Positions 4,217 through 57,930 of a stretch of DNA of 64,000 bases are shown one piece after another. Position numbers and translations under genes: made by a program. A model generated the notes under the pieces. The model had not been told where the DNA came from. It worked only from the letters and a program-made list of their open reading frames with translations, and did not search any database. Within the stretch, counting starts at the first letter, position 1; each line of letters begins with the position of its first letter. The stretch comes from Mustelus asterias (taxonomy: Eukaryota). The DNA is taken from assembly GCF_964213995.1 (NCBI RefSeq), contig NW_027590120.1:310001-374000 (forward strand). Reading direction: 5' to 3'.

Positions 4217-4698
4217 ATGGGAATCCTCCTTGTTTTCACCGTGTGTGCCTATTTACCCCGTGAGTACCGATCAAACTAACTCACATTGTGTGGATTGAAC
4301 ATAAAGCTGCCCCAGTCCATTTCAATTACAAACACTGTCTGGGGTTTTAGCCCCGTTGTGCGATTCGGCTCTGATGGTCCATTAAACTCTCTGTGTTTAA
4401 TTTCCAGGATGTTTCAGTCAGTCAGTGACTCAAAGCCCGGCAGCGGTGACCAGGAAGGAGTGTCAGTCTCTCACCATCACCTGTGTTTTCAATGGTGTTT
4501 ACGATTTAGAAAATGGCCATTTCTTCAGACAAACCCAGACTGGGACAGAGCGGGAGCGGATCTCCAGCGGAGGGAGGTTTGTTGTGTCGGTGAATGAAGC
4601 AGAAAAGACATTTTCGCTGGAAATTCGGGACATGAGAATTGAAGACACCGCCACCTATTACTGTAAAGCTCAGCATTGGTACTACACACATGGGACAC
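4217..4698 (+). CDS. NAR-TCR (IgNAR-like) V segment, intact; leader exon 4217-4259, V exon 4408-4698
   Basis: Leader MGILLVFTVCAYLP with gtgagt donor and in-frame tttccag acceptor. V is QSVTQSPAAVTRKECQSLTITC..RERISSGGRFVVSVNEAEKTFSLEIRDMRIEDTATYYCKA. The short FR2/CDR2 is typical of VNAR, and there is an extra FR1 Cys. TATA-like catataaa at ~4187. Confidence 0.88.
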
Positions 4699-4726
4699 CA
4701 CAGTGGAAGAGAGGAGAACAAATACT
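4699..4726 (+). other. 12-RSS of NAR-TCR V
   Basis: CACAGTG + 12 bp (gaagagaggaga) + ACAAATACT. Confidence 0.88.
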
Positions 4727-5057
4727 TAAGTATTTCTGAACAAGCGAAGCAATAATTTCCAGGACACGGACCATAGCTTGTCGGGTTGTTGTTATTATCG
4801 TTGCAACATGGTTTCATTTCGTTGTAATTTCCTCCTTTCAGTTATCTTTCTTTAACTTTTTTATTCCATTTCTACGAAGCGTCCATCTCCGCTCCGTTCC
4901 TGGGCCATTTTGCCAAGAGTTCAGAGTGTCCCAAGGAACAGTTTATTCCAATGGGAATTATAAAACTATCATTCTTCATTATTGACCTATAACCCCTGAA
5001 TAATTGATAAACGCTGACTATTCGGTAATTTTTTCCCCATCAGTTTGAGGTGTCAGT

Positions 5058-5149
5058 CATTCTTGTGCTGGGCTGACTGAGAGCGCTGACACTGTGGGGA
5101 GAGTGGAGATTTACAGACGGGTCTGGGACGGTGGTGACTGTCTCAGCTG
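5058..5149 (+). CDS. NAR-TCR J segment (coding 5097-5149) with 5' 23-RSS (5058-5096)
   Basis: cattcttgt + 23 bp + cactgtg, then GEWRFTDGSGTVVTVSA and a phase-1 gtaagt donor. Confidence 0.88.
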
Positions 5150-7192: not shown

Positions 7193-7498
7193 AATCCAGT
7201 TCATCTGTGTCACAGAATTCGTCTCTCCAAACCTGTGCTGCTGACGACACCATTACTTTAAACTGTGAATATCCAGGATTTTGTCAACACACACTCTACT
7301 GGTACCGTCACTCTCCAGGACAGACCCCAAAATACCTGCTTAAGAGACACACATCAGGCGAGGCGATCAAAGAAAACGCTGCCGGGCAGAGAATTTCTGC
7401 GTCTGTCGACCCTGTCGAAAAAATCAGCTGGTTAAAGATCTCCAAGGTGCAACTGAGCGACTCCGCTGTGTATTACTGTGCACTGAGTGGGCGCACAG
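7193..7498 (+). CDS. NAR-TCR supporting TCR Vdelta segment (leaderless), intact
   Basis: Open V exon ..TLNCEYPGFCQHTLYWYRH..LSDSAVYYCALSGRT with an extra Cys in CDR1. No leader exon found. Acceptors at 7183 and 7192 are both in phase with the NAR J donor. Confidence 0.87.
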
Positions 7499-7795
7499 CA
7501 CAGTGATGCAGAACAGGGAGAGAGCCGTACAGAAACTTGAACATGGTGAGGATTACAGACAAAGTGATACAGAACACGGAGAGAGCTGTACAAATACCTG
7601 GACCTGGTGAGGATTACAGGCACAGTGATACAGAATACGGAGAGAGCTGTACAGAAACCTGAACATGGTGAGGATTTCAGACAGAGTGATACAGAACACG
7701 GAGAGAGATGTGCAATAACTTGTACATGGTGTGGATTACAGACACAGTGATGCAGAAGACGGGGAGAGTTATACAGAAGCCTGAACATGGTGAGA
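7499..7795 (+). repeat. Tandem array of five 23-RSS units, 61-bp period
   Basis: Heptamers at 7499 CACAGTG, 7560 CAAAGTG, 7621 CACAGTG, 7682 CAGAGTG, 7743 CACAGTG. Each has 23 bp + nonamer (ACAGAAACT, ACAAATACC, ACAGAAACC, GCAATAACT, ACAGAAGCC). Confidence 0.92.
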
Positions 7796-7813
7796 TCACA
7801 AGAATCTGAAATG

Positions 7814-8043
7814 CATGTTCAGGTTTTTGTACAGCTCTCTCCGTGTTCTGTATCAGTATGTCTGTAATCCTCACCATGTCCAATTTATTGCACAGCTCTC
7901 TCCGTGTTCTGTGTCACTGTGTCTGTAATCCTCACCATGTCCAGGTTTTTGTACAACTCTCTCCGTGTTCTGTATCACTGTGTCTGTAATCCTCACCACG
8001 TTCAGGTTTTTGTACAGCTCTCTCCGTGTTCTGTGCGACTGTG
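7814..8043 (-). repeat. Tandem array of four 23-RSS units, 61-bp period, inverted relative to the first array
   Basis: RSSs at 8005-8043 (CACAGTC/ACAAAAACC), 7944-7982 (perfect CACAGTG/ACAAAAACC), 7883-7921 (CACAGTG/GCAATAAAT), 7822-7860 (CATACTG/ACAAAAACC). Confidence 0.92.
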
Positions 8044-8348
8044 CTGTGCGCCAACTCAGTTCACAGTAATAAACAGCGGAGTCGCTCAGTTAAAGTTTGG
8101 AGATCTTTAACCGGCTGATTTTGACGGAAGAATCGATAGAAGCAGAAATCCTCCCCCCGACCCTGTTTGATTTATTCTCCTGTCCAGAAATGTGTGTCTG
8201 AAGCAGGTATTTCTGAGCCTGTCCTGGGGTCTGAGGGTACCAGTGTACTGTGTACTGACAGAGACCTGAATATTCGCAGCTTCAAATAACCGGTCACCGG
8301 CAGCAGAGGTTTGTAGAAGGGAACTTGGTGACACAGCTGAGCTGGAAT
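8044..8348 (-). pseudogene. Supporting TCR Vdelta pseudogene
   Basis: Paralog of 7193-7498 (CEYSGLCQYTVHWY..AVYYCELSWRT) with an FR1 frameshift and an in-frame TAA (ISKL*LSDS). Confidence 0.85.
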
Positions 8349-12148: not shown

Positions 12149-12239
12149 CGGCTGTGACAGTCACCACCGTCCCAGACCCATCTGCAATCTCCATTCTCCC
12201 CACAGTGTCAGCGCTCTCAGTCAGCCCAGCACAAGAATG
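12149..12239 (-). CDS. Second NAR-TCR J segment (coding 12149-12200) with 23-RSS (12201-12239)
   Basis: GRMEIADGSGTVVTVTA with gtaagt donor; RSS identical to that of the first J. Confidence 0.85.
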
Positions 12240-12574
12240 ACTGACACCTCAAACTGCCGAGCAGCCATTACCGAACAATCAGTGTTTCTCGATTATTCAG
12301 GGGATTTGAATCAATAATGAACATTGGTTGTTTAAAAACGAAACATCATTGGACAAAATTTTTCCTTCTGACTCTCTGAGCTCCTGGTAAAATTTCCCAG
12401 GAACAGGAGCAGAGATGCAAGATTCTTATTAACAGCGAAAAGCCTTGAAGAATTATAGCTGATGGTGGAAATTACAATGAAATTAAACTAGATTGAACTG
12501 GGAATAACATCAACCCGACAAGTCAAGTTACCGAACATGGGAATTGCTGGGAATTACAGTTTTGATTGTCCTGA

Positions 12575-13070
12575 GGTTTTTGTCGAACTCTCTCCCAATG
12601 CGGTGTCCTGTGTGAGTAGTACCAGTGCTGAACTTTACAGTAATAACTGGCACTGTCTTCAACTCTCACGTCAGGAATTTCCAGTGAAAATGTCTTTTCT
12701 GCTTTATTCACCAGTACAATAAATCTCCCTCCGCTGGAGATCCGCTCCTGCTCCGTCCCGGTCTGGATTTGTCTGAAAAAAATGACCATTTTCTAAATCA
12801 TAAACTCCATAGAAAACACAGGTGATGGTAAGAGACTGACACTCCTTCCTGGTCAACGCTGCCAGGCTCTGTGTCACTGACTGATTGAAAGATCCTGGAA
12901 ATTAAACACAGAGTTTAATGGACCAAACAAAGGGGCTAAAATCCTAGACAGTGTCTGTAATTGAGATGGACTGGGGCAGCTTTATATTCAATCCACGCAA
13001 TGTGGGTGAGTTTGATCGGTACTCATCAGGGTAAACAGGCACACAGGGTGAAAACAAGAAGGATTCCCAT
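12575..13070 (-). pseudogene. Second NAR-TCR V, pseudogene (V exon 12603-12894, leader to 13070, 12-RSS 12575-12602)
   Basis: Paralog of 4217-4698. It has a +1 frameshift in a T-run (~12780), a disrupted leader donor (gatgagt) and a heptamer mutated to CGCATTG. The 12-bp spacer and ACAAAAACC nonamer are retained. Confidence 0.87.
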
Positions 13071-30725: not shown

Positions 30726-30764
30726 GGTTTTTGTAGGGGGTTTTAGCTGTAATCTAATCCTGTG
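30726..30764 (-). other. 23-RSS
   Basis: CACAGGA + 23 bp + ACAAAAACC. Confidence 0.88.
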
Positions 30765-31252
30765 CCTCACTGCACAGTAATAGACCGCCCCGTCCTCCAA
30801 ACTGAGGGCGCTTATATTGAGGGAGCCGCTCTGTGTGGACTTGTCAGTAGCCGGCAGATATCGTCCTGAAACTTCATTTTCCTCCACTACTAATGCATTG
30901 GTAATAATCCATCTCGGTGGCTGTGCCGGTTTCTGCTGATACCATTGCATGTAGCTCATACCCTTGTCTGTATAGTTACAATCCAACTGCACCGAATCCC
31001 CTTCTGATGCTGTTATTGTCACCGGTGACTGAGTTACTGGATCTGCGCACAGTCCACCTGTAAAGGTAGAGGAATTAAATATCAAGAGTTCATGTAAATT
31101 TATAGTTTGTGGAACCTCCCATCTACACCTCACATGGATATTTTTGATGGTTAATTAAATTGGCATCTTTGTGTATAAATATGTTTCCGTGGTTTGATGA
31201 ACGTTATCCGGTACTTACTGTGCAAGAGCGCCGCCAGAATGATCAGAAACAT
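30765..31252 (-). CDS. TCR alpha/delta V segment of a different family, intact (leader 31219-31252, V exon 30765-31057)
   Basis: MFLIILAALLHS|GLCADPVTQSPVTITASEGDSVQLDCNY..MQWYQQKP..DGAVYYCAVR with canonical splice sites. Confidence 0.9.
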
Positions 31253-38692: not shown

Positions 38693-39562
38693 TTACTCGT
38701 GAATTCTTTGGTGTCTAAGCAGGTAGGATGACTGAGTGAATCTCTTCCCACTCTCAGAGCAGGTGAATGGCCTTTCCCCAGTGTGAGCTCGCTTGTGTCT
38801 CAGCAGGCTGGAGGACTGAATGAATCCCTTCCCACACTCGGAGCAGGTGAATGGCCTTTCCCCAGTGTGGGTGCGCTGGTGTAGAATGAGGTCATATGAT
38901 CGCCTGAACCCAGTCCCGCAGTGAGAGCACCTGAACGGTCTCTCATCAGTGTGAACACATTGATGGGAAGTCAGTTCACCAGAACTTTTATAGCACTTCT
39001 CACAGTCAGAGCATTTAAATGGTCTCTCCCCAGTGTGAACTCGCTGGTGTGTCAATAGTTGGGATGACCGAGTGAATCCCTTTCCACACTCGGAGCAGGT
39101 GAATGGTATCTCCCCAGTGTGAATTCGCTGGTGTACAGTAAGGCTATGTGAATGCTTGAACCCAATCCCACAGTGAGAGCATCTGAACGGTCTCTCATCA
39201 GTGTGAACACGTTGATGGGACGTCAGTTCCCAAGAACTTTTGAAGCATTTCCCACAGTCTGAGCATTTAAAAGGTCTCTCATCAGTGTGAACTCGCTGAT
39301 GAGCAAGTAGATTGGATGACTGAGTGAAACCCTTCCCACACTCAGAGCAGGTGAACGGTCTCTCCCCAGTGTGACTGCGCCGATGAGCTTCCAGCTGGGA
39401 TGGGTAATTAAATTCCTTCCCACAGTCCACACATTTCCACAGTTTTTCCAAGGAGTGGCTGCACTTACGTTTTGACAGGCCAGAGGATCGGCTGAAGCCT
39501 CGTCCACACACAGAACCCGTGTACGGTTTCTCTCCACTGTGAATAGTGCTTTTTCCTTCCAT
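38693..39562 (-). CDS. C2H2 zinc-finger protein, 289 aa (~8 intact + 2 degenerate fingers)
   Basis: Tandem CxxC..H..H with TGERPF/TDERPF linkers in an uninterrupted ORF; acceptor-like tttcacag at ~39645. Confidence 0.88.
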
Positions 39563-40077
39563 GTTCCAAATTGGACGACTCTGGCAGTTCCTGATATGAT
39601 ATTTACTTTCAGTTTCCTGACTGCAAATCGTCCCCTTCTAGTCCCTGTGAAACTGATTTAAAACAGAAAAAAGGGGATTGAGAGAGAACCCATAGAGACA
39701 GGTGATGAACAGAGTCCAGACCGAAGCAACAGTTAAAAAAACACGCAGGAGGCCAGGAACTGAGTTCTGCATCCAACACGCAGCCTGATTCAAACCGGCT
39801 CCTAACTGTGTTTCTAAATTCGAACCTATAAAAGAATAACACAGAAAACTCTGTGGAGACTGTATCTTCGACAAAAAAACAAATCCTCGAGATATTCAGC
39901 AGACTAGGCAGCCTGTGAGAGTTACAAACAGAACTGAGGGCTCAGGTAGCTGACCTGCCCTCAGTCTATAATGAAACATCTAGAGTCAAGCACTGACTAA
40001 TGGCCGTCACATTTCCCACAATGCTCTGCGCCCCAGAAACCCCTCTATTCAAAAGTTGCTCACCGTTATTCACTAAT

Positions 40078-40895: not shown

Positions 40896-43121
40896 AGTGA
40901 AGGTAGTTTGCCGCAAATTTGGGGTGATAACAATGGGCTGGATGTTGCTCAGAATGTGGAGCACTGCAGCAAAGTACAGAGAGACAGAGCAGCAGACTGG
41001 ACTGAGAAATGGAGTCTGCAGACTGGAACTGGCAGCATGAGGAGAGGTTATTTAGTCTAACACTCACAGCAATCTACAACCCACCCCCATTACCGAGACA
41101 GTGAGACAGAGATTACAAACACTCACCAACACAGCTCCACAGAAACGTCCCAGGAAAAAGAGGGAATCTGTGGCAGTTCCTGTCCTGAAATAGCCCCAGG
41201 ACTGTCACTCAAACCCCCAACCCGGCCCAGTTCACAGCTCAGCCTCTCAGCTTGCAGCTTCCTGCACCTTGAGCCAACCTTGCCCAGGTGTGGGAGGGTC
41301 TGTGAAACCACAGAATGGGGGGAGGGGTGACCTCCTGCTGTGTCCCAAATAGTTTGTCCTTCCCCTCCCCCTTGGCGCTCTAAGCTCTCAATGTGGACAG
41401 ATTGCTGGACTTTGCAGAGCCTCACTGAGCTGCGCCTGTCCCTTATCCTGGGTCACCCCCTCTCCCTGGGTTTAGTGTGTGTGAAATCGCTGCTTGTTTC
41501 CCTGCTGAACCTTCAGTTAAACACAAACAGAAAATGCTGGAGAACCTCAGCATTTCTGGCAGCACCTATGATCATCCAGACTGGAAACATTAATTCTGTT
41601 CTCTCTCCACAGATGCAGTCAGACCTGCTGAGATTTCCAGCATTTTCTGTTTCAGATTCCAGCATCCGCAGTATTTTTGCTTTTATCTTCATTTAAACAA
41701 GCATTCTTTGATGGCCTTTACCCCCATTGCTCCTTTCCAGAGCTTCCCACCTTCTGCTATTGTCCCTGACTCCCACATTAACTCTGTCATTCCTCCCCTT
41801 TACCCCGCTCACCCTGTCTAAACTCAGGCTCAGAGTTTTCCCGCCATCTCCCCCTCCCCCAGCTCCCACATCCCAACACCCGGAATCTCTAACCCAGCGG
41901 TTCCAGTTTGTCTGGTTTGAGTTCAGATTTGCCGCAGCACCGACAGGATTTCACTTCAAACCAGCCGGAACTGACTGCTCACAAATCCCCAAATGTTTCT
42001 CCAGCAGCCCGGGCTTGTTAACGTTGTTTAAAGTCAGTTTCAGTTACTCTCTTCAGTTTAAAAAACTTCTCCATTTAATTTAAGATATTACTCGCACCAG
42101 ACACAAATATAAAACAGTGAACATTATCCCCCCACCCTGACCCGAGCTGGAGTGTCCCGAGGAAGAGACATCTGTTCCGGGTGTAACAATTCTTCGACAT
42201 TCTCTGTGACATAAAGCAGGAAACGCTGGAAATACTCAACAAGTCAGGCAGCCTCTGTGGAGAGAGAAACAGACTGAATGTGACCTGTCATCGGAACTGG
42301 GAAAAATATTATTTCCTGCAACTAAAAGAGACACTTTACAGCCTTCAGAACAAAACTGAGCTCAACAATTTTACACCACAATCTCTGCCCCCATTGTGTT
42401 CTGTGTTTCGTTGTTGCTTCTTTCACCTCATTTCCCTCTTGTTTTCTTTACTTTGCATTCGGACTATTGCTAACCGGCTATTTCCACCTCATCCAGATCA
42501 TCTTTTGTGTCTTTACTTGTCCCATTAACACTCGTTTTGGTCTTGGGCTGTGAATCATGTTATCAGTTTGCAGATTTTTCATTTTGTTCTTCTCCACCTC
42601 CCTCTCTCCCTTCTTCACGGGTCTGGCTTTCCCTGTGTGGCTCCGGAGAACGAGCGGATTTAAGACGTCTGAAAGAGAGAGAATGAGATTTTTTTTTCTC
42701 TCAGAGGGTCTTTGGTCTGTGGAATTCTCTTCCCCAGAGAGCAGTGGAGAGAGAGTCATTGAATATTTTTAAGGCTGATTCATTGAATTCTTGAGAGGAA
42801 AGTGGAGTTTTGGTCACAGTCAGATCAGCTGGGATCTTATCTGGAGCAGAGCAGCCCAAAGGTCTACTGCTGCTCTTGATTCATATGGATGTTTAACTGT
42901 GTGTTTCACTCTGTTTCTGCCTCCACACAAACTGCCGGGCCTGTTGACTCTTTGTGGCGTTGACTGTTTTATTTCAGATTTTAACACTCTAACCTCACGG
43001 TTAAGCTATTGCAGAAGATACGGAGGCATGGGATTGAGGGTGATTTAGCGGTTTGGATCAGGAATTGGCTAGCTGTAAGAAGATTTTAAACTCTCTGGGA
43101 ACTGTGCCCAGGGACACACAC

Positions 43122-46100
43122 ACAATTAATCCAGTTCTCCTGGATTACTGCTCTGTAACATATCACTGTGTAATCCAACAATTAATCCAGTTCCCCTGGA
43201 TTTCGGCTCTGTTACATATCACTGTGTAATCTAACAATTACTCCAGTTCCCCTGGATTCCTGCTCTGTAACATATCACTGTGTAATCTAACAATTACTCC
43301 AGTTCCCCTGGATTACTGCTCTGTAACATATCACTGTGTAATCCAACAATTAATCCAGTTCCCCTGGATTACTGCTCTGTAACATATCACTGTGTAATCC
43401 AACAATTAATCCAGTTCCCCTGGATTACTGCTCTGTAACATATCACTGTGTAATCTAACAATTACTCCAGTTCCCCTGGATTACTGCTCTGTAACATATC
43501 ACTGTGTAATCTAACAATTAATCCAGTTCCCCTGGATTTCTGCTCTGTTACATATCACTGTGTAATCCAACAATTAATCCAGTTCTCCTGGATTTCTGCT
43601 CTGTAATATATCACTGTGTAATCCAACAATTAATCCAGTTCCCCTGGATTGCTGCTCTGTAACATATCACTGTGTAATCCAACAATGAATCCAGTTCTCC
43701 TGGATTACTGCTCTGTAACATATCACTGTGTAATCCAACAATTAATCCAGTTCCCCTGGATTCCTGCTCTGTAACATATCACTGTGTAATCTAACAATTA
43801 ATCCAGTTCTCCTGGATTCCTGCTCTGTAACATATCACTGTGTAATCTAACAATTAATCCAGTTCCCCTGGATTCCTGCTCTGTAACATATCACTGTGTA
43901 ATCTAACAATTAATCCAGTTCTCCTGGATTCCTGCTCTGTAACATATCACTGTGTAATCTAACAATTAATCCAGTTCCCCTGGAGTCCTGCTCTGTAACA
44001 TATCACTGTGTAATCCAACAATTAATCCAGTTCCCCTGGATTACTGCTCTGTAACATATCACTGTGTAATCTAACAATTAATCCAGTTCCCCTGGATTAC
44101 TGCTCTGTAACATATCACTGTGTAATCCAACAATTAATCCAGTTCCCCTGGATTACTGCTCTGTAACATATCACTGTGTAATCCAACAATTAATCCAGTT
44201 CCCCTGGATTACTGCTCTGTAACATATCACTGTGTAATTCAACAATTAATCCAGTTCTCCTGGATTTCTGCTCTGTAATATATCACTGTGTAATCTAACA
44301 ATTAATCCAGTTCCCCTGGATTACTGCTCTGTAACATATCACTGTGTAATCCAACAATTAATCCAGTTCTCCTGGATTTCTGCTCTGTTACATATCACTG
44401 TGTAATCTAACAATTAATCCAGTTCCCCTGGATTCCTGCTCTGTAACATATCACTGTGTAATCTAACAATTAATCCAGTTCCCCTGGATTACTGCTCTGT
44501 AACATATCACTGTGTAATCCAACAATTAATCCAGTTCTCCTGGATTTCTGCTCTGTTACATATCACTGTGTAATCCAACAATTAATCCAGTTCTCCTGGA
44601 TTTCTGCTCTGTAATATATCACTGTGTAATCCAACAATTAATCCAATTCTCCTGGATTTCTGCGCTGTAACATATCACTGTGTAATCTAACAATTAATCC
44701 AGTTCCCCTGGATTTCTGCTCTGTAACATATCACTGTGTAATCCAACAATTAATCCAGTTCCCCTGGATTACTGCTCTGTAACATATCACTGTGTAATCC
44801 AACAATTAATCCAGTTCGCCTGGATTACTGCTCTGTAACATATCACTGTGTAATCCAACAATTAACCCAGTTCCCCTGGATTTCTGCTCTGTAACATATC
44901 ACTGTGTAATCTAACAATTAATCCAGTTCCCCTGGATTTCTGCTCTGTTACATATCACTGTGTAATCCAACAATTAATCCAGTTCTCCTGGATTTCTGCT
45001 CTGTAATATATCACTGTGTAATCTAACAATTAATCCAGTTCTCCTGGATTACTGCTCTGTAACATATCACTGTGTAATCCAACAATTAATCCAGTTCCCC
45101 TGGATTACTGCTCTGTAACATATCACTGTGTAATCCAACAATTAATCCAGTTCCCCTGGATTACTGCTCTGTAACATATCACTGTGTAATCTAACAATTA
45201 ATCCAGTTCCCCTGGATTACTGCTCTGTAACATATCACTGTGTAATCCAACAATTAATCCAGTTCCCCTGGATTACTGCTCTGTAACATATCACTGTGTA
45301 ATCCAACAATTAATCCAGTTCCCCTGGATTACTGCTCTGTAACATATCACTGTGCAATCCAACAATTAATCCAGTTCCCCTGGATTACTGCTCTGTAACA
45401 TATCACTGTGTAATCCAACAATTAATCCAGTTCCCCTGGATTTCTGCTCTGTAAAATATCACTGTGTAATCCAACAATTAATCCAGTTCCCCTGGATTTC
45501 TGCTCTGTAACATATCACTGTGTAATCTAACAATTAATCCAGTTCTCCTGGATTACTGCTCTTTAATACGTCACTGTGTAATCCAACAATTAATCCAGTT
45601 CCCCTGGATTACTGCTCTGTAACATATCACTGTGTAATCTAACAATTAATCCAGTTCCCCTGGATTTCTGCTCTGTAAAATATCACTGTGTAATCTAACA
45701 ATTAATCCAGTTCTCCTGGATTACTGCTCTTTAATACGTCACTGTGTAATCCAACAATTAATCCAGTTCCCCTGGATTACTGCTCTGTAACATATCACTG
45801 TGTAATCTAACAATTAATCCAGTTCCCCTGGATTTCTGCTCTGTAAAATATCACCGTGTAATCCAACAATTAATCCAGTTCCCCTGGATTACTGCTCTGT
45901 TACATATCACTGTGTAATCCAACAATTAATCCAGTTCCCCTGGATTTCTGCTCTGTTACATTTCACTGTGTAATCCATCAATTAATCCAGTTCCCCTGGA
46001 TTCCTGCTCTGTAACATATCACTGTGTAATCTGACAATTAATCCAGTTCCCCTGGATTCCTGCTCTGTAGCATATCACTGTGTAATCCAACAATTAATCC

Positions 46101-48829
46101 AGTTCCCCTGGATTACTGCTCTGTTACATATCACTGTGTAATCCAACAATTAATCCAGTACCCCTGGATTTCTGCTCTGTTACATTTCACTGTGTAATCT
46201 AACAATTAATCCAGTTCCCCTGGATTTCTGCTCTGTAACATATCACTGTGTAATCCAACAATTAATCCAGGTCCCCTGGATTACTGCTCTGTAACATATC
46301 ACTGTGTAATCTAACAATTAATCCAGTTCTCCTGGATTCCTGCTCTGTAACATATCACTGTGTAATCTAACAATTAATCCAGTTCCCCTGGATTACTGCT
46401 CTGTAACATATCACTGTGTAATCTAACAATTAATCCAGTTCCCCTGGATTCCTGCTCTGTAACATATCACTGTGTAATCTAACAATTAATCCAGTTCCCC
46501 TGGATTCCTGCTCTGTAACATATCACTGTGTAATCTAACAATTAATCCAGTTCCCCTGGATTCCTGCTCTGTAACATATCACTGTGTAATCTAACAATTA
46601 ATCCAGTTCCCCTGGATTTCTGCTCTGTTACATTTCACTGTGTAATCTAACAATTAATCCAGTTCCCCTGGATTTCTGCTCTGTAACATATCACTGTGTA
46701 ATCTAACAATTAATCCAGTTCCCCTGGATTCCTGCTCTGTAACATATCACTGTGTAATCCAACAATTAATCCAGTTCCCCTGGATTACTGCTCTGTAACA
46801 TATCACTGTGTCATCCAACAATTAATCCAGTTCTCCTGGATTACTGCTCTGTAACATATCACTGTGTAATCTAACAATTAATCCAGTTCCCCTGGATTAC
46901 TGCTCTGTAACATATCACTGTGTAATCTAACAATTAATCCAGTTCTCCTGGATTACTGCTCTGTAACATATCACTGTGTAATCTAACAATTAATCCAGTT
47001 CCCCTGGATTCCTGCTCTGTAGCATATCACTGTGTAATCTAACAATTAATCCAGTTCCCCTGGATTCCTGCTCTGTAACATATCACTGTGTAATCCAACA
47101 ATTAATCCAGTTCCCCTGGATTTCTGCTCTGTAACATATCACTGTGTAATCCAACAATTAATCCAGTTCCCCTGGATTACTGCTCTGTAACATATCACTG
47201 TGTAATCCAACAATTAATCCAGTTCCCCTGGATTACTGCTCTGTAACATATCACTGTGTAATCCAACAATTAATCCAGTTCCCCTGGATTTCTGCTCTGT
47301 AAAATATCACTGTGTAATCCAACAATTAATCCAGTTCCCCTGGATTTCTGCTCTGTAACATATCACTGTGTAATCTAACAATTAATCCAGTTCTCCTGGA
47401 TTACTGCTCTTTAATACGTCACTGTGTAATCCAACAATTAATCCAGTTCCCCTGGATTTCTGCTCTGTAACATATCACTGTGTAATCTAACAATTAATCC
47501 AGTTCCCCTGGATTTCTGCTCTGTAAAATATCACTGTGTAATCTAACAATTAATCCAGTTCTCCTGGATTACTGCTCTTTAATACGTCACTGTGTAATCC
47601 AACAATTAATCCAGTTCCCCTGGATTACTGCTCTGTAACATATCACTGTGTAATCTAACAATTAATCCAGTTCCCCTGGATTTCTGCTCTGTAAAATATC
47701 ACTGTGTAATCCAACAATTAATCCAGTTCCCCTGGATTACTGCTCTGTTACATATCACTGTGTAATCCAACAATTAATCCAGTTCCCCTGGATTTCTGCT
47801 CTGTTACATTTCACTGTGTAATCTAACAATTAATCCAGTTCCCCTGGATTCCTGCTCTGTAACATATCACTGTGTAATCCATCAATTAATCCAGTTCCCC
47901 TGGATTACTGCTCTGTTACATATCACTGTGTAATCCAACAATTAATCCAGTTCCCCTGGATTTCTGCTCTGTTACATTTCACTGTGTAATCCATCAATTA
48001 ATCCAGTTCCCCTGGATTTCTGCTCTGTAACATATCACTGTGTAATCTAACAATTAATCCAGTTCCCCTGGATTCCTGCTCTGTAGCATATCACTGTGTA
48101 ATCCAACAATTAATCCAGTTCCCCTGGATTACTGCTCTGTTACATATCACTGTGTAATCCAACAATTAATCCAGTTCCCCTGGATTTCTGCTCTGTTACA
48201 TTTCACTGTGTAATCTAACAATTAATCCAGTTCCCCTGGATTTCTGCTCTGTAACATATCACTGTGTAATCTAACAATTAATCCAGTTCCCCTGGATTCC
48301 TGCTCTGTAACATATCACTATGTAATCTAACAATTAATCCAGTTCCCCTGGATTCCTGCTCTGTAACATATCACTGTGTAATCTAACAATTAATCCAGTT
48401 CCCCTGGATTCCTGCTCTGTAACATATCACTGTGTAATCCAACAATTAATCCAGTTCCCCTGGATTACAGCTCTGTAACATATCACTGTGTAATCTAACA
48501 ATTAATCCAGTTCCCCTGGATTCCTGCTCTGTAACATATCACTGTGTAATCCAACAATTAATCCAGTTCCCCTGGATTACTGCTCTGTAACATATCACTG
48601 TGTAATCTAACAATTAATCCAGTTCCCCTGGATTCCTGCTCTGTAACATATCACTGTGTAATCTAACAATTAATCCAGTTCCCCTGGATTCCTGCTCTGT
48701 AACATATCACTGTGTAATCCAACAATTAATCCAGTTCCCCTGGATTCCTGCTCTGTAACATATCACTGTGTAATCCAACAATTAATCCAGTTCCCCTGGA
48801 TTCCTGCTCTGTTACATATCACTGTGTAA
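43122..48829. repeat. 56-bp tandem satellite, ~102 copies
   Basis: Unit caattaatccagttcccctggattactgctctgtaacatatcactgtgtaatccaa. Confidence 0.97.
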
Positions 48830-48872
48830 CGGAACCCGTTCCTGCTGCCGTGAACACACAAACACAGCGAGG

Positions 48873-48891
48873 GAGCTCCCTCTTGTGGCGA
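48873..48891 (-). promoter_or_regulatory. CTCF-like motif
   Basis: CGCCACAAGAGGGAGC on minus; similar motifs at 23805(-), 24708(+), 28311(-), 31523(-). Confidence 0.55.
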
Positions 48892-51024
48892 TGTGAGGTA
48901 AATGGCCTCTGCCTGGGAAATCACTGAATTCTCAGATTACTGAAGGATCTTGTTGGAGGATTGTGCTGCTGTATTTTTCTTATTCCTACTATTCTTATTT
49001 TAATATATTTTAATGCAGACGAATCTATTCCCATAACTGATATCAATCTCGGAAACAAATACAGACAAACTCATAGACACACAAATACTCAGAAAAATGC
49101 AGACACATACAGAGGATTCCAAGAATAAATTAGATATAGCTCTTGGGGCTAAAGGTGTGGGAAGAAGGGGGATCAGAATATTGAATTCGATGATCAGCCA
49201 TGATCAAAATGAATGGCGGAGCAGGCTCGAAGGGCCGAATGGCTTCCTCCTGCTTCTAGTTTCTATCTTTCTATAATCTCACACAAACACACACACAGCA
49301 CACACAGATACACACTCATACATACACACGCTCAGACACACACACTATCTCAGACACTCTCACAAACACAGAGACAGACTGAGACCATGAAGGGTTGATG
49401 TCAGTCTCACTCCAAATAATCTGCTGGGCAAATTAAAACAACAGAAGCAAATCTGAAATTCAGTGTGTGAGTTTTATTGTGAAATGAGATAATGTATAAA
49501 GATATCCCCATAGCTCAGGGTGGGAGTGGAATTGATGATTTGTCTGCTGTCTGAACAAATATTAAATTGTAGAGATTATAAAGTTTGAATTGTAATATCT
49601 AATGGTGTGAAGTATCTGGGAGCAGAGTGGGTGTGGTAAAGGCTGGAATACAAACTGGGGGAATGAGGGTGAAACTGCGGTGCACAGTGAATGGTTCTTG
49701 TTGTAGGGAGGGATGGGAGGAGGGATAGAGAGAGGAATGGGGGGGGGGATGACCTTCCAGAATGTCTTTCCCAGCCTTGAGATCCAGGGAAGTTTTCAGC
49801 ATTAAAACAGAAAATGCTGACAATAAGAATCCACACTTTTCCAAGTACCAGTTGATTGTGCCCCAGATTATTGGTTTCATTTTTCTCCACCGCTGATGTT
49901 AAGATGATTGTTCTGTAATTTTTTGAACAGGGATGTAACATTTCCAATCTCTCAGCCTTTTGGCACCACAACTCTATGAGAAGGATTGGAAGATTGTGGC
50001 CAGAGCCTCCACAAGCTCCATGTGAAGGACAGTGTGTGTCAGAGTGCAGCAGTCCCTCAGTGTCAGACTGCAGTGTCAGCCTAGATAATGTGCTCAGCTT
50101 GATGAGTATTTCCTGTTGTTATTGATGTGGATCATTCAGAAACAATGGACTCTGATGATGTCATCCAGTCCTGCTGCGATGATGTCATAGAGACTATTAC
50201 ATCACAGTGGAGCCTTTGTGGTGAAAACAGTTTTGTTCCAGACGGCAGCAAGTCCATTACTGATAGATCTGGAAATAGAATTACTGGGTCACAGAGCACA
50301 ATATTAGGATGGATGGTCAAAACCTTGTTTGGAGAGACAGACCTTAACAAACACCTTTAATCTGGACAGTTAGGGAGGGAGTTTCAGAATCTCATATCCA
50401 GGCCTTGTTCCATTCACTCAAAATATTTTACAGAAATTGATAAGTTATAATGATCAGGAAGGTTTGAAAAGCATTAATCTCTTCTCTTTGGAACAATGTT
50501 GACCCCATTTTCTGTCTCAATCTGATTCTCTTTGTCTCAGTTTACGAACTTCCATCCCATTCACTCTCACTGTCTCTTTCCCCATTTACTTTGCTCCCTC
50601 TATTCACTTGTTCTCTGTCTGTAATAATCACAATGACTGCCGGTGATTCTCTGACTACAATCAGAAAAGAAATTAATCCGAAGTGTGCAGTCCCACCCAG
50701 CTGGACAACAATGGAGAGGCACTGGAGGAAGATGGTTTGGTCAATGGTGTCAATAACTGCAGACTGGCTGAGAAGGACAGTGACAGATAACTTACCTCAG
50801 TCATATTCACACAGTAATTTGAGACTTTGGTAAGAGCTGGTTTAATACTGTGGAAAGACAAATGTAATCGGAGGGATTCACACAGGGAATTTCAGGACAT
50901 ATGGGCAGAGATTTGGGAGACGACAGGGATTTTGGAAGTTGTAATGAGAGATGGGCAGGAGGGGAACAAAGACACCGGGGTCAAGGGTGGGCTCGTGGGA
51001 GGAAGGGAAGCAACAGAGGCAGCT

Positions 51025-51691: not shown

Positions 51692-52750
51692 TCATTGTCG
51701 TTGTTTGTGAGCTTGTTGGTGTCTCATCAGTACAGAAAAATAAGCAAATCCCTTCCCACATTCAGCACATGTGAATGGCCTCTCCCCTGTGTGAACTCGC
51801 TGGTGTGTCAGTAGGTTCGATGACTGAGTGAATCCCTTCCCACACACAGAGCAGGTGAACGGTCTCTCCCCAGTGTGAACGTGCTGGTGCATCAGAAGTT
51901 TGGATGAGGAAGGGAATCCCTTCCCACACTCAGAGCAGATGAATGGTCTCCCCCCAGTTTGAACACACCGGTGTGTCAGAAGGACGGATGACTGAGTAAA
52001 TCCCTTTCCACAGTCAGGGCAGGTGAACAGCCTCTCCCCAGTGTGAATTTGCTGGTGCACAGTCAGGTGAGACGATCGCTTGAATGCAGACCCACAGTGA
52101 GAGCATCTGAACGGTCTCTCATCAGTGTGAACAGGTTGATGCTGCATCAAGTCCTGGGAACTTTTAAAGTGTTTTCCACAGTCTGTACATGTAAAAGGTC
52201 TCTCATCAGTGTGAACTCGCTGGTGTGTCTGCAGTTTGCATTGCTGAGTAAATCCTTTCCCACACAAGGAACAGGTGAATGGCCTCTCATTGCTGTCAAC
52301 ATGTTGATGGCGCATCAGTTCCCCAGAACATTTGTAACACTTCCCACAGTCTGAGCATTTAAATGGTCTCTCCTCAGTGTGAACTCGCTGGTGATTCAAC
52401 AGGGTGGATGACTGAATGAATCCCTTCCCACACACAGGACAGGTGAACGGCCTTTCCCCAGTGTGAAGTCGCTGATGTATCAGAAGGTAGGATTGACGAG
52501 TGAATCCCTTCCCACATTCGAAGCAGGTGAACGGTTTCTCCCCAGTGTGACTGAGCCAATGACTTTCCAGGCCAGACGGGGATTTGAATCCCTTCCCACA
52601 ATCCCTGCATTTCCACGGTTTCTTCCTGGATTGACTGCATTTGTGTTTCAACAGGTCAGATGATTGGCTGAAGCCTCGTCCACACAGAGAGCACGTGTAT
52701 GGTTTCTCTCCATTGTAAATGGTGCTTGTTCCTTCCATGTTCAAAATCAA
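51692..52750 (-). CDS. C2H2 zinc-finger protein, ~350 aa (~12 finger units, ~3 degenerate)
   Basis: Tandem fingers with TGE(K/R)PF linkers; paralog of 38693-39562, including similar flanks. Confidence 0.88.
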
Positions 52751-53139
52751 ATGATATTCAAGTTACGATAAATTGGAAAACTCCACCAGATTGTGATGTG
52801 ATGTTTCGTTTCAGTTTCCCGACTGCAAATCCTCCTCTTCTAAAATGCTGTGTAACTGTTTCAAAACAGAAAAAAATGGAGTGAGAGAGAACCCACAAAA
52901 ACACAAAGGCAGTTTGTGAAATTGAGCTGAATGAATCTGGTCATTTGCGGGGCCGGCTCCAGGGAAAAGTGACCATTAAAACTGGTGGATTCTCATAAAA
53001 ACCCAACTGGTTCACTAATGTCCTTCGGGAAGGAAACCTGCCACCCAGTCTGAGTCGACACAGATTCTGTCCACAAATTTCTAAACTGTCCCTGAACACC
53101 AAGGTCTGGGTCATTTGTATACATTAGGAAGAGCTGGGT

Positions 53140-56160: not shown

Positions 56161-56507
56161 TGTGTGCGAAAAAAGTATTTAATTATTTTATCCAATGATG
56201 TATTTTACTTTTGATTTTATATATTTTATTAACCTTACCAGCAGTTGCTATACGATTTTGATCCTTAGACATCGAATAAACTTTAGTCACTTTGCAGATA
56301 CTCAGCAAATAGCTCGCCGCTCTTTCTCCTGTAGAAGAGGAAGATCACTTCCCAAAGGCTGAGAATATTAGAAAGCAAAAGGGTACCTCGTTCCCTTCCT
56401 TCCCTAAGTCCCTTAATCACCCAACTCTTAGCACACTGTTCTAAGCTGCATTCAAGTGATGCCAGTTCAGAGCTGTTTCTGAGCTGCAGATTCAATACAA
56501 TACTCAC

Positions 56508-57694
56508 TTGCAGACATGGACATCAAGGCCTGTATGGGTCTCCAGGCCATCATGCACACCATCATGATAGGGAGGATGGAGATGGTGTTGCCAGCCATGT
56601 ACATGATGAACAGATTCATGGGCAGCTGTTTCAATGGGCCCAAGGTGATGAAAACAGAAAGTGAGCAGGGTATCAGTAAAGGGGGCCGGTTTGGGGAGGC
56701 CATATGCTGATCTTATACACAGGTCTGGAAGTAACAATTAACTCAATAAGTCCCTTTATCAAACAGGCTGCTGTGGTTCACCAAGGCACTTCACCACTGT
56801 GGACAAACCAGGGGCGTTGTCAGCCACACACTAAAGACACATTCAAATCTAACTTACCTTCTCAACTCGGATCCGGTCTGTTTCTTGGACGCGGATGTCC
56901 GGTAGCTGTTTGTCCGAATATGCGACTGGGTACATGGAGTCTCTCTGGCCACACTGTTGATCACGGCTCCTGTGAGAAACAGAAAACACAAATTGGTCAC
57001 CCTTTCAAGACCTTGTTTAAAGAGGGAGTCTCTCTGTTGAGGACCCCAACGTGGTGACAATAGTGCCAGCATGAACTAAAGCTTGGGCAAACCTCAGACA
57101 CACACTGCCGTTGCGTGTACCAAACTGCCAGGGGAATGGAGGGCTGCAGAAGTGGATTAGTGTCAATCAGGGTGCCAATCCACTTGCCCTCCATTGAGGG
57201 ACAAAGCGACAAATCACCACATGTACCAAATTGTATCTTGAAAACAAACACTGCGGGACATTGAGAGAGATCCAGTTCAGCACCCGGCCCTGGAAACGAG
57301 CAATCGTTCCTCCAACCACCACCGCAGTTGGCACCTGATCAGGTGGAGGGGCTGAAACCAAAAGGGCATCTCAGGGTCATGACCTGGGGAAAAGATGCCA
57401 AGTGGGGTCTGAGTGGTTTCTGGGGGATTTGAGGGGCTGCTTTGTGCTGAGGGGCTCGGTGAGGAGTAAAAGACGCGTGAAAAACCCGGGGTTGGGAAGT
57501 TTTGGGTTGGTTCCACATCCCCGGGTCAGTGTGCGGTGGCGTCCCCTCGGGAGAGGCGGGCTGACCCGGCTTGCCGCTTACTTGAGCCCCCGGCTCCCCG
57601 CGCGGCCTCCGCAGCTGCTGCTGCCGCTCAGGTTAAACTCGAGGGTCCACTTGTGCCAGCGCGCGCGGTTGACAAGCCCCGCCCCTGCAGCCAT
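56508..57694 (-). pseudogene. EMC4: ER membrane protein complex subunit 4, exons 1-3 only (57582-57694, 56858-56969, 56508-56649), probably a partial non-functional copy
   Basis: [93 protein letters not shown]. Exon 3 lacks its AG acceptor and the RCWD codons; later exons were not seen. Confidence 0.82.
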
Positions 57695-57930
57695 GGCAAC
57701 GCCGGCGACAGTTAACCGCTTTCAAATCTGATTCCGATCCGAAGAAGAAGCCGCGCGCTTCCGTCAACAAACCACAACCGCAGCAATGCGCATGTGCGGT
57801 CCCAACCTCCTCAGCCCATTGCCCCGCCCCCACATCGCAGCCATCTTTGTTAGGGGCACATCGGCTCCGACACTTCACCTTGTCAAACGGAGCACGTCTG
57901 CCCCGCACAAAGATGGACGTCACTTAACCT
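57695..57930 (-). promoter_or_regulatory. CpG-rich housekeeping promoter of the EMC4 copy
   Basis: High CpG, NRF1-like tgcgcatgtgcg (~57787), YY1-like gccatctt (~57840), ETS-like cttccg, GC box. Confidence 0.65.

What the first reader, a model, noticed from the sequence alone, without database searches (positions are those of the whole stretch)
43122..48891. 5.7-kb satellite made of ~100 12-RSS-like units beside a TCR V array
Seen: on the minus strand essentially every 56-bp unit reads CACAGTG + exactly 12 bp (atatgttacaga or a variant) + GCAG(A/T/G)AATC. The GCAGAAATC variant (e.g. 43535-43562) matches ACAAAAACC at 6/9, including C2 and A5-A7, and resembles real nonamers in this window (ACAGAAACC, GCAATAACT). 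The heptamer is almost invariant and oriented like the RSSs of the minus-strand V segments. The would-be coding flank starts with TAA, and a CTCF-like motif lies ~45 bp past the end. Inference: a 12/23-compatible RAG sink or V-inactivating element (compare the kappa-deleting element and deltaRec), or a terminator of RAG scanning at the locus edge; at minimum a fragile site in lymphocytes. Alternative: the unit resembles the head of the local SINE (agtggtaatgtcactgg..taatccagag), so the RSS likeness may be fortuitous.
Basis: partly seen in the sequence, partly recalled or inferred. Interest (0 to 1): 0.75.

Follow-up and report, generated by a model that had tools for sequence, protein, structure and literature searches.

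The report
Shark minisatellite mimicking RAG cutting signals
A short DNA unit repeated about a hundred times next to a duplicated zinc-finger gene in a shark-like T-cell-receptor region looks like a weak cutting signal for the immune recombinase, but it is likely an ordinary variable-number repeat that spread with that gene, and whether it is ever cut is untested.

Summary
The array is real: 101.9 copies of a 56-bp unit, with CACAGTG in 100 of 102 units. Its nonamers score within the range of this genome's own J-segment signals, and one variant is one base from a real J nonamer.

It is not a unique locus-edge element. It lies about 3.5 kb upstream of a C2H2 zinc-finger coding exon, in a cassette with at least 26 near-identical copies. 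Unit number runs from 1 to over 100. About 3,900 unit matches exist genome-wide, on the TCRα/δ–IgH chromosome, V-bearing unplaced contigs, and scaffolds where no V or J was listed.

The signal positions are not more conserved than the rest of the unit. No array lies in 129 kb sampled around δ D–J clusters, and no germline joints were found.

Verdict: a VNTR carrying a weak cryptic 12-RSS, likely neutral; occasional RAG cutting is plausible but untested. The scan had not noted this satellite before.

The parts
43122..48829 (-). 56-bp minisatellite (VNTR), 101.9 units. Each unit has a heptamer, a 12-nt spacer, a degenerate nonamer and an 8-bp inverted repeat that overlaps the nonamer
43535..43562 (-). 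Example of the best-scoring unit variant (nonamer GCAGAAATC, 31 of 102 units)
48875..48890 (-). CTCF-like motif (motif name recalled; binding untested). The same element also occurs beyond the 3' ends of cassette zinc-finger genes with no repeat attached
48830..49700 (-). 5' flank of the duplicated cassette, shared with other arrays
42250..43060 (-). 3' flank of the duplicated cassette; at least 26 copies at 95-100% identity, this one included
41000..42200 (-). Cassette block between the array and the zinc-finger exon, likely promoter and first exon (inferred from a splice-donor-like site near 41125; no RNA evidence)
38693..39637 (-). Open C2H2 zinc-finger coding exon, 314 aa stop to stop, identified by its repeated finger and linker motifs (not scanned against Pfam)
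30756..31046 (-). Nearest TCR alpha/delta-type V exon (Pfam V-set) with a 23-RSS at 30764
51692..52762 (-). Second open C2H2 zinc-finger exon on the other side of the array, 356 aa

Best explanation
This is a variable-number 56-bp minisatellite lying upstream of a zinc-finger gene in a cassette that has been duplicated many times among shark-like TCR alpha/delta V segments, and each unit carries a weak cryptic 12-RSS that is likely incidental and not selected. Shown: the cassette, its copies, the range of unit numbers, an 8-bp hairpin in each unit, and no extra conservation of heptamer or nonamer. Inferred: a single unit expanded by slippage or unequal exchange, perhaps helped by the hairpin; segmental duplication then spread the arrays along with zinc-finger and V genes, which accounts for the immune linkage. 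Predicted: RAG cuts such units at most at the low off-target level described for cryptic sites in mouse Tcra/d, with no programmed role.
For: Cassette: 26 of 50 listed flank matches are near full length at 95-100% identity (40 of 1,797 candidates scored). Of 40 fetched 9.9-kb array loci, 35 carry the cassette 5' block, 23 show a zinc-finger exon downstream in the same orientation, and 0 hold a V exon. 29 of those loci were chosen by flank, so the less biased figure is 6 of the 11 chosen by the unit. Unit number: 1 in L043, 2-7 in many copies, and 51 in a twin region on C71 that is up to 99.9% identical over 9.9 kb, against 102 here. No selection signal: among 268 distinct units out of 1,120, rare changes per site are 12.0 at CAC, 7.8 at heptamer 4-7, 6.7 nonamer, 6.3 spacer and 7.8 linker (p=0.62), and nonamer position 5 is the most variable site of the unit. 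Diverged arrays keep the heptamer in 2 of 6 and 5 of 13 units. Arrays also occur in LINE-rich settings with no V, C or zinc-finger exon in about 20-40 kb sampled around them on C38-C67. Seven arrays on C71 lie in both orientations, 5 plus and 2 minus. No unit in 13 stretches around two delta D-J clusters. No germline signal joint; 10 of 15 candidate V-unit joints were inspected and none has a V upstream. The commonest variants carry G4 and T8, and 67 of the 98 units of the three main variants lack A5; such changes lower synapsis in PMC7337519 (passages). None of the three nonamers was found in the top-1000 table of PMC12711392.
Against: The signal is a good mimic. On a matrix from 15 nonamers of this genome the variants score 8.1, 6.8 and 5.2, against -2.0 to 11.6 for real J nonamers left out in turn. 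Only 3, 5 and 9 of 313 background heptamers reach those scores at a 12 spacer, and the top three look like genuine RSSs. A real delta-type J uses GCAGAAAGC, one base from the best variant. The single-unit cassette already has the best variant. One-base neighbours GCAGAAACC and ACAGAAATC are in the top-1000 table, and two of three variants fit the purine-A/T-purine rule of that paper. Exact copies are absent from C1-C37 in the listed matches, so the family is enriched where RAG works. Locally the array does sit near the border of a V island and a zinc-finger block. The conservation test counts related units, not independent mutations. A germline assembly cannot show somatic joints.
Confidence: 0.7

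Rival explanations
1. The units are efficient cryptic 12-RSSs, possibly descended from a decayed real signal, and the long arrays would be heritable, copy-number-variable RAG break hot spots in shark lymphocytes, without a selected role.
For: Scores in the range of real J signals; one base from a real J nonamer; about 3,900 unit matches with 23-RSS partners on both strands nearby; closeness to a probable promoter. Cryptic sites take about 1% of junctions in mouse Tcrd (PMC4995090, passages).
Against: No homology to any J segment: the best J ranks 97 of 1,051 heptamer windows. Likeness to the 61-bp V-RSS repeat is not significant once the heptamer is held fixed (94 of 1,000 shuffles). No array near the sampled D-J centres. 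In mouse, off-target use is confined to the loop that holds the recombination centre. A diverged paralogue has a broken heptamer and different spacing in its first unit.
Confidence: 0.16
2. The array is a selected RAG decoy or V-inactivating element, like the kappa-deleting element or deltaRec, or a terminator of RAG scanning.
For: 12/23 compatibility with V signals, convergent orientation to the plus-strand V at 7198-7497, an adjacent CTCF-like motif, and enrichment on the antigen-receptor chromosome.
Against: No conservation of signal positions. Unit number ranges from 1 to over 100. Orientation is tied to the zinc-finger gene, not to J segments. Copies lie on scaffolds with no listed V or J. 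V segments lie on both sides on C88 and C71. The CTCF-like element also occurs without the repeat.
Confidence: 0.06
3. The VNTR with its CTCF-like neighbour modulates or insulates the zinc-finger promoter, and the RSS likeness is irrelevant.
For: Fixed position and orientation upstream of the zinc-finger 5' block in 35 of 40 loci. Cassette pieces are present in runs of four other organisms.
Against: No RNA data are available. The same repeat occurs without zinc-finger genes. Twin cassettes tolerate very different unit numbers.
Confidence: 0.08

Closest known systems
Cryptic RSSs as RAG off-targets (PMC12711392: abstract, introduction, results parts 1-2 of 3, term searches in Table S2; PMC4995090: 12 of 15 passages)
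   Same: Perfect heptamer with a degenerate nonamer at a legal spacing, no gene segment attached, inside an antigen-receptor region.
   Different: Those are scattered single sites with measured cutting in mouse or human cells. Here one site is amplified head to tail up to 100-fold or more, and cutting is unmeasured.
Minisatellite / VNTR within segmental duplications (general class, recalled); SINE-derived satellites of squamates (PMC10702118, abstract and outline only)
   Same: 56-bp period, homogenised units, large differences in copy number between near-identical loci, clustering in repeat-rich regions.
   Different: A SINE origin is not shown here (110-251 of 2,000 shuffles score as well); the unit carries an RSS-like motif.
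Kappa-deleting element and deltaRec (recalled; PMC2198968 seen only as a search listing)
   Same: An RSS without a coding gene segment inside an antigen-receptor locus.
   Different: Those are single, positioned elements with demonstrated programmed joints. This is a multi-locus variable repeat in both orientations, unconserved at signal positions, with no joints seen.
Elasmobranch antigen-receptor complex (PMC12227049, abstract and 12 of 23 passages)
   Same: C71 carries TCR alpha/delta V and J segments and many C1 exons; IgM-like exons were read on unplaced contigs.
   Different: The term 'zinc finger' has 0 occurrences in that paper's main text, and the passages seen mention no such satellite.

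Membership tests
Minisatellite / VNTR | Head-to-tail units of roughly 10-100 bp | tested here: met
   56 bp x 101.9, 95% matches
Minisatellite / VNTR | Unit number varies between homologous loci | tested here: met
   1 to 102 units; twin region has 51. Allelic or paralogous status is not resolved.
12-RSS, sequence definition | CAC-initiated heptamer | tested here: met
   100 of 102 units CACAGTG; 101 of 102 begin CAC
12-RSS, sequence definition | Nonamer-like motif at 12-nt spacing | tested here: met
   Scores 5.2-8.1, inside the range of real J nonamers; 5-6 of 9 consensus matches; weak side by PMC7337519 and PMC12711392
12-RSS, sequence definition | Passes the RIC-12 threshold | not testable with these tools
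   No RIC model is available. Only 23-RSS-context values for neighbouring nonamers were seen.
Bona fide 12-RSS | Flanks a V, D or J coding segment | tested here: not met
   The flank is the next repeat unit or cassette DNA; no J homology
Bona fide 12-RSS | Cleaved by RAG with a 23-RSS partner | not testable with these tools
   Needs biochemistry or lymphocyte DNA; no such run was listed
Kde / deltaRec-type deleting element | Single element at a fixed place and orientation relative to J-C | tested here: not met
   Many arrays, both orientations on C71, none in the sampled delta D-J stretches
Kde / deltaRec-type deleting element | Signal positions conserved by selection | tested here: not met
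   Rare changes are not depleted at heptamer or nonamer, p=0.62; within one genome only
Kde / deltaRec-type deleting element | Programmed somatic joints in lymphocytes | not testable with these tools
   Only germline joints could be sought; none found
SINE-derived satellite | Unit alignable to part of a SINE beyond chance | tested here: inconclusive
   68 of 300 shuffles and 110-251 of 2,000 score as well; a colinear match of about 50 nt is visible in some copies

The most novel reading that the evidence does not exclude
The shark antigen-receptor chromosome carries thousands of tandem, cleavable 12-RSS mimics in arrays of heritably variable length, interleaved with V segments and zinc-finger genes. 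They act as RAG break hot spots or decoys that delete or invert V and zinc-finger blocks in thymocytes, so repeat length would tune the T-cell repertoire.
Probability: 0.15. Interest if true: 0.75.

Novelty: new member of a known kind. Interest (0 to 1): 0.3.

Why it matters
If neutral, it is a caution: in shark antigen-receptor regions, linkage to V genes comes for free through segmental duplication, and RSS-like repeats can look functional. If the units are cut, it would be a natural, copy-number-variable test of how RAG treats dense cryptic signals in the oldest lineage with V(D)J recombination. The shared unit sequence makes that test cheap: one primer against V primers in thymus versus erythrocyte DNA.

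Tried and rejected
A DNA search of the genome with three units returned nothing, probably because repeats are skipped; pattern searches replaced it.

Derivation from a J segment was rejected: the best J ranked 97 of 1,051 windows. A D-like structure at the first unit was rejected by reading, since there is no inverted heptamer ending in GTG and no nonamer. Derivation from the 61-bp V-RSS repeat: 24 of 1,000 plain shuffles but 94 of 1,000 heptamer-keeping shuffles score as well, so it is not accepted. A SINE origin is neither accepted nor excluded.

A general link to IgM clusters is not supported: 2 of 23 LINE-junction arrays lie within 8 kb of a listed C1 exon, with only 150 of 793 C1 candidates scored. 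Rfam found nothing in 15 loci from the C38-C67 scaffolds.

Expression: no RNA holder was listed, and laying contigs gave no usable splice evidence. Depth over the single unit in other organisms' runs was higher than the upstream flank in three of four runs, but that depth is not a copy number, so it is not used.

Literature: none of the nine answered searches listed a paper whose title or abstract start describes this repeat or an RSS-like satellite; the library lacks most subscription papers.

Rows dropped: L093, a SINE false hit, was left out of the J training set. In the training set, V nonamers under 5 of 9 matches would have been dropped, but the single distinct one passed.
Full report
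OBSERVATION. Tandem Repeats Finder gives one array at 43122-48829, period 56, 101.9 copies, 95% matches. On the minus strand 100 of 102 in-phase units begin CACAGTG. After 12 nt come GCAGTAATC (42), GCAGAAATC (31), GCAGGAATC (25) or four single variants, and no 11-, 22- or 23-nt spacing gives a better nonamer. The CTCF-like motif lies 46 bp past the array. The description is accurate, but the 97 matches against 0.1 expected reflect one unit amplified. Each unit also has an 8-bp inverted repeat that folds as a hairpin (z -4.66, 0 of 200 shuffles) and overlaps the last five nonamer bases.

SETTING. The window is G000:C88:310001-374000. The nearest V signal is 12.4 kb away. C71 (20.4 Mb) has V segments from 6.5 to 17.4 Mb on both strands, an alpha-type J cluster at 18.37-18.41 Mb, three delta-type J clusters and many C1 exons. 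This fits the elasmobranch antigen-receptor complex of PMC12227049 (abstract and passages). The window is colinear with C71:16.02-16.09 Mb, up to 99.9% identical over 9.9 kb; whether it is a haplotype or a recent duplicate is not resolved. On C88 the array lies near the border of a V island and a zinc-finger block, and the next V found is about 96 kb further on. It is a local border, not the edge of the locus.

DISTRIBUTION. An exact 29-mer of the unit has 965 matches and a 26-mer with up to two mismatches has 3,882. Only the first 100 of each are listed. Listed exact matches begin at C38 and, skip C68-C70 and C72-C86, so the large chromosomes with the other V and J clusters (C7, C22, C24, C69, C73) lack exact copies. 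Diverged copies there are not excluded. The 3' flank has 26 near-full-length matches at 95-100% (40 of 1,797 candidates scored). Of 40 fetched array loci, 35 carry the cassette 5' block, 23 show a downstream zinc-finger exon in the same orientation, and none has a V exon within the 9.9 kb. Of the 11 loci chosen by the unit alone, 6 carry the block. Unit counts are 1 (L043), 2-7 in many copies, 51 in the C71 twin and 102 here; an array on C87 spans about 26 kb by its listed ends (not fetched whole). A second family of arrays abuts a LINE (23 junctions). Two of these lie a few kb downstream of an IgM-like last C exon. Others are on small scaffolds C38-C67 where I found LINEs and other satellites but no V, C or zinc-finger exon in the stretches sampled. 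So the repeat is neither genome-wide nor specific to V arrays: it travels inside segmental duplications of repeat-rich regions, mainly with a zinc-finger cassette.

HOW GOOD A SIGNAL? Better than I first assumed. I collected J signals by the J coding motif, not by the nonamer, and found a delta-type J with GCAGAAAGC, one base from the best unit variant. On a matrix of 15 distinct nonamers the variants score 8.1, 6.8 and 5.2, against -2.0 to 11.6 for real J nonamers left out in turn. At a 12 spacer, 3, 5 and 9 of 313 background heptamers reach those scores; at 12 or 23 spacing, 14, 19 and 28 do, and that background includes unannotated real signals. In PMC12711392 (introduction, results parts 1-2 of 3, Table S2 searched by term, not read whole) none of the three nonamers was found among the top 1,000, but two one-base neighbours were, and two of three variants fit its purine-A/T-purine rule. 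That screen used a mouse 23-RSS. PMC7337519 (12 of 29 passages) reports that breaking the A tract, or C to T at position 8, lowers synapsis; 101 of 102 units have T8. I read this as a weak but plausible cryptic 12-RSS. As for chance, 10 of 192 other tandem consensus units in the fetched DNA contain the heptamer; they fall into three families, one being the real V-RSS stack. The coincidence is therefore uncommon per repeat family but not implausible across a genome; this step is inference.

IS IT SELECTED OR USED? Among 268 distinct units out of 1,120 from 54 loci (some overlapping), rare changes are not depleted at heptamer or nonamer (p=0.62). CAC has the most per site, and nonamer position 5 is the most variable site. 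Diverged arrays keep the heptamer in 2 of 6 and 5 of 13 units, and one paralogue has a broken heptamer and altered spacing in its first unit. Seven arrays on C71 face both ways. None lies in 13 stretches around two delta D-J clusters; in mouse Tcrd, off-target joints are about 1% of junctions and stay within the loop of the recombination centre (PMC4995090, 12 of 15 passages). No germline signal joint was found. Of 15 candidate V-unit coding joints, the 10 inspected have satellite or other non-V DNA upstream; 5 were not inspected. These tests cannot see somatic events. The CTCF-like element also occurs beyond zinc-finger 3' ends without the repeat, so it belongs to the cassette.

ORIGIN. There is no homology to J segments (best rank 97 of 1,051). 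Likeness to the 61-bp V-RSS repeat and to a local SINE head is visible but not significant. Pieces of the cassette are present in runs of four other organisms. The origin is unresolved.

MECHANISM AND VERDICT. Most likely (0.70): a hairpin-containing unit upstream of a zinc-finger gene expanded as a VNTR and was spread by segmental duplication among V segments; its cryptic 12-RSS is incidental and would be cut rarely, if at all. Rivals: an efficient but unselected RAG hot spot (0.16), promoter modulation (0.08), a selected decoy or deleting element (0.06). It works like a cryptic RSS in sequence, is a member of the VNTR class, and fails the tested features of Kde/deltaRec-type elements. My literature searches listed no description of it, and the scan's own notes had no look-alike. 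Interest 0.3; new member of a known kind.

Noticed in passing
window 7198-8344: Two convergent V segments, one open and one with a stop, each followed by stacked 61-bp units that each contain a 23-RSS (4.9 and 3.6 copies). These are true tandem RSSs, unlike the satellite, and they recur in L137 and L122.
   Followed up: partly
window 4398-5096 and 12201-12900: An open NAR-TCR-like V ends in a perfect heptamer with a 12-nt spacer and a 7/9 nonamer, facing a J with a 23-RSS 400 bp away. The paralogue at 12612 has a 22-nt spacing instead.
   Followed up: partly
G000:C71 7.12, 11.03 and 12.25 Mb, and 14 unplaced contigs: Delta-type J clusters are multiplied through the V field in addition to the single alpha-type J cluster; some may be haplotype duplicates.
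   Followed up: no
L151-L153 (G000:C479) and L155-L158 (G000:C194): The same satellite lies a few kb downstream of the last C exon of two IgM-like clusters, in the orientation of the VH signal.
   Followed up: partly
window about 56500-57800, minus strand: Exons of an EMC4-like gene (name recalled from the translated motif; not searched), next to the second zinc-finger gene.
   Followed up: no
L167-L168 (G000:C41:89000-108900): A retrovirus-like insertion with long open frames resembling gag, pol and env (labels recalled), lying between two satellite arrays. Observed only.
   Followed up: no
G000:C87:1250810-1277400: A very long array of the same unit, about 26 kb, whose listed variants recur at intervals, suggesting higher-order duplication.
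   Followed up: no
L090 (G000:C116:36000-39900): An unrelated CA-rich satellite also contains the heptamer with a 5-6/9 nonamer match at a 12 spacer, a useful control for chance RSS likeness.
   Followed up: partly
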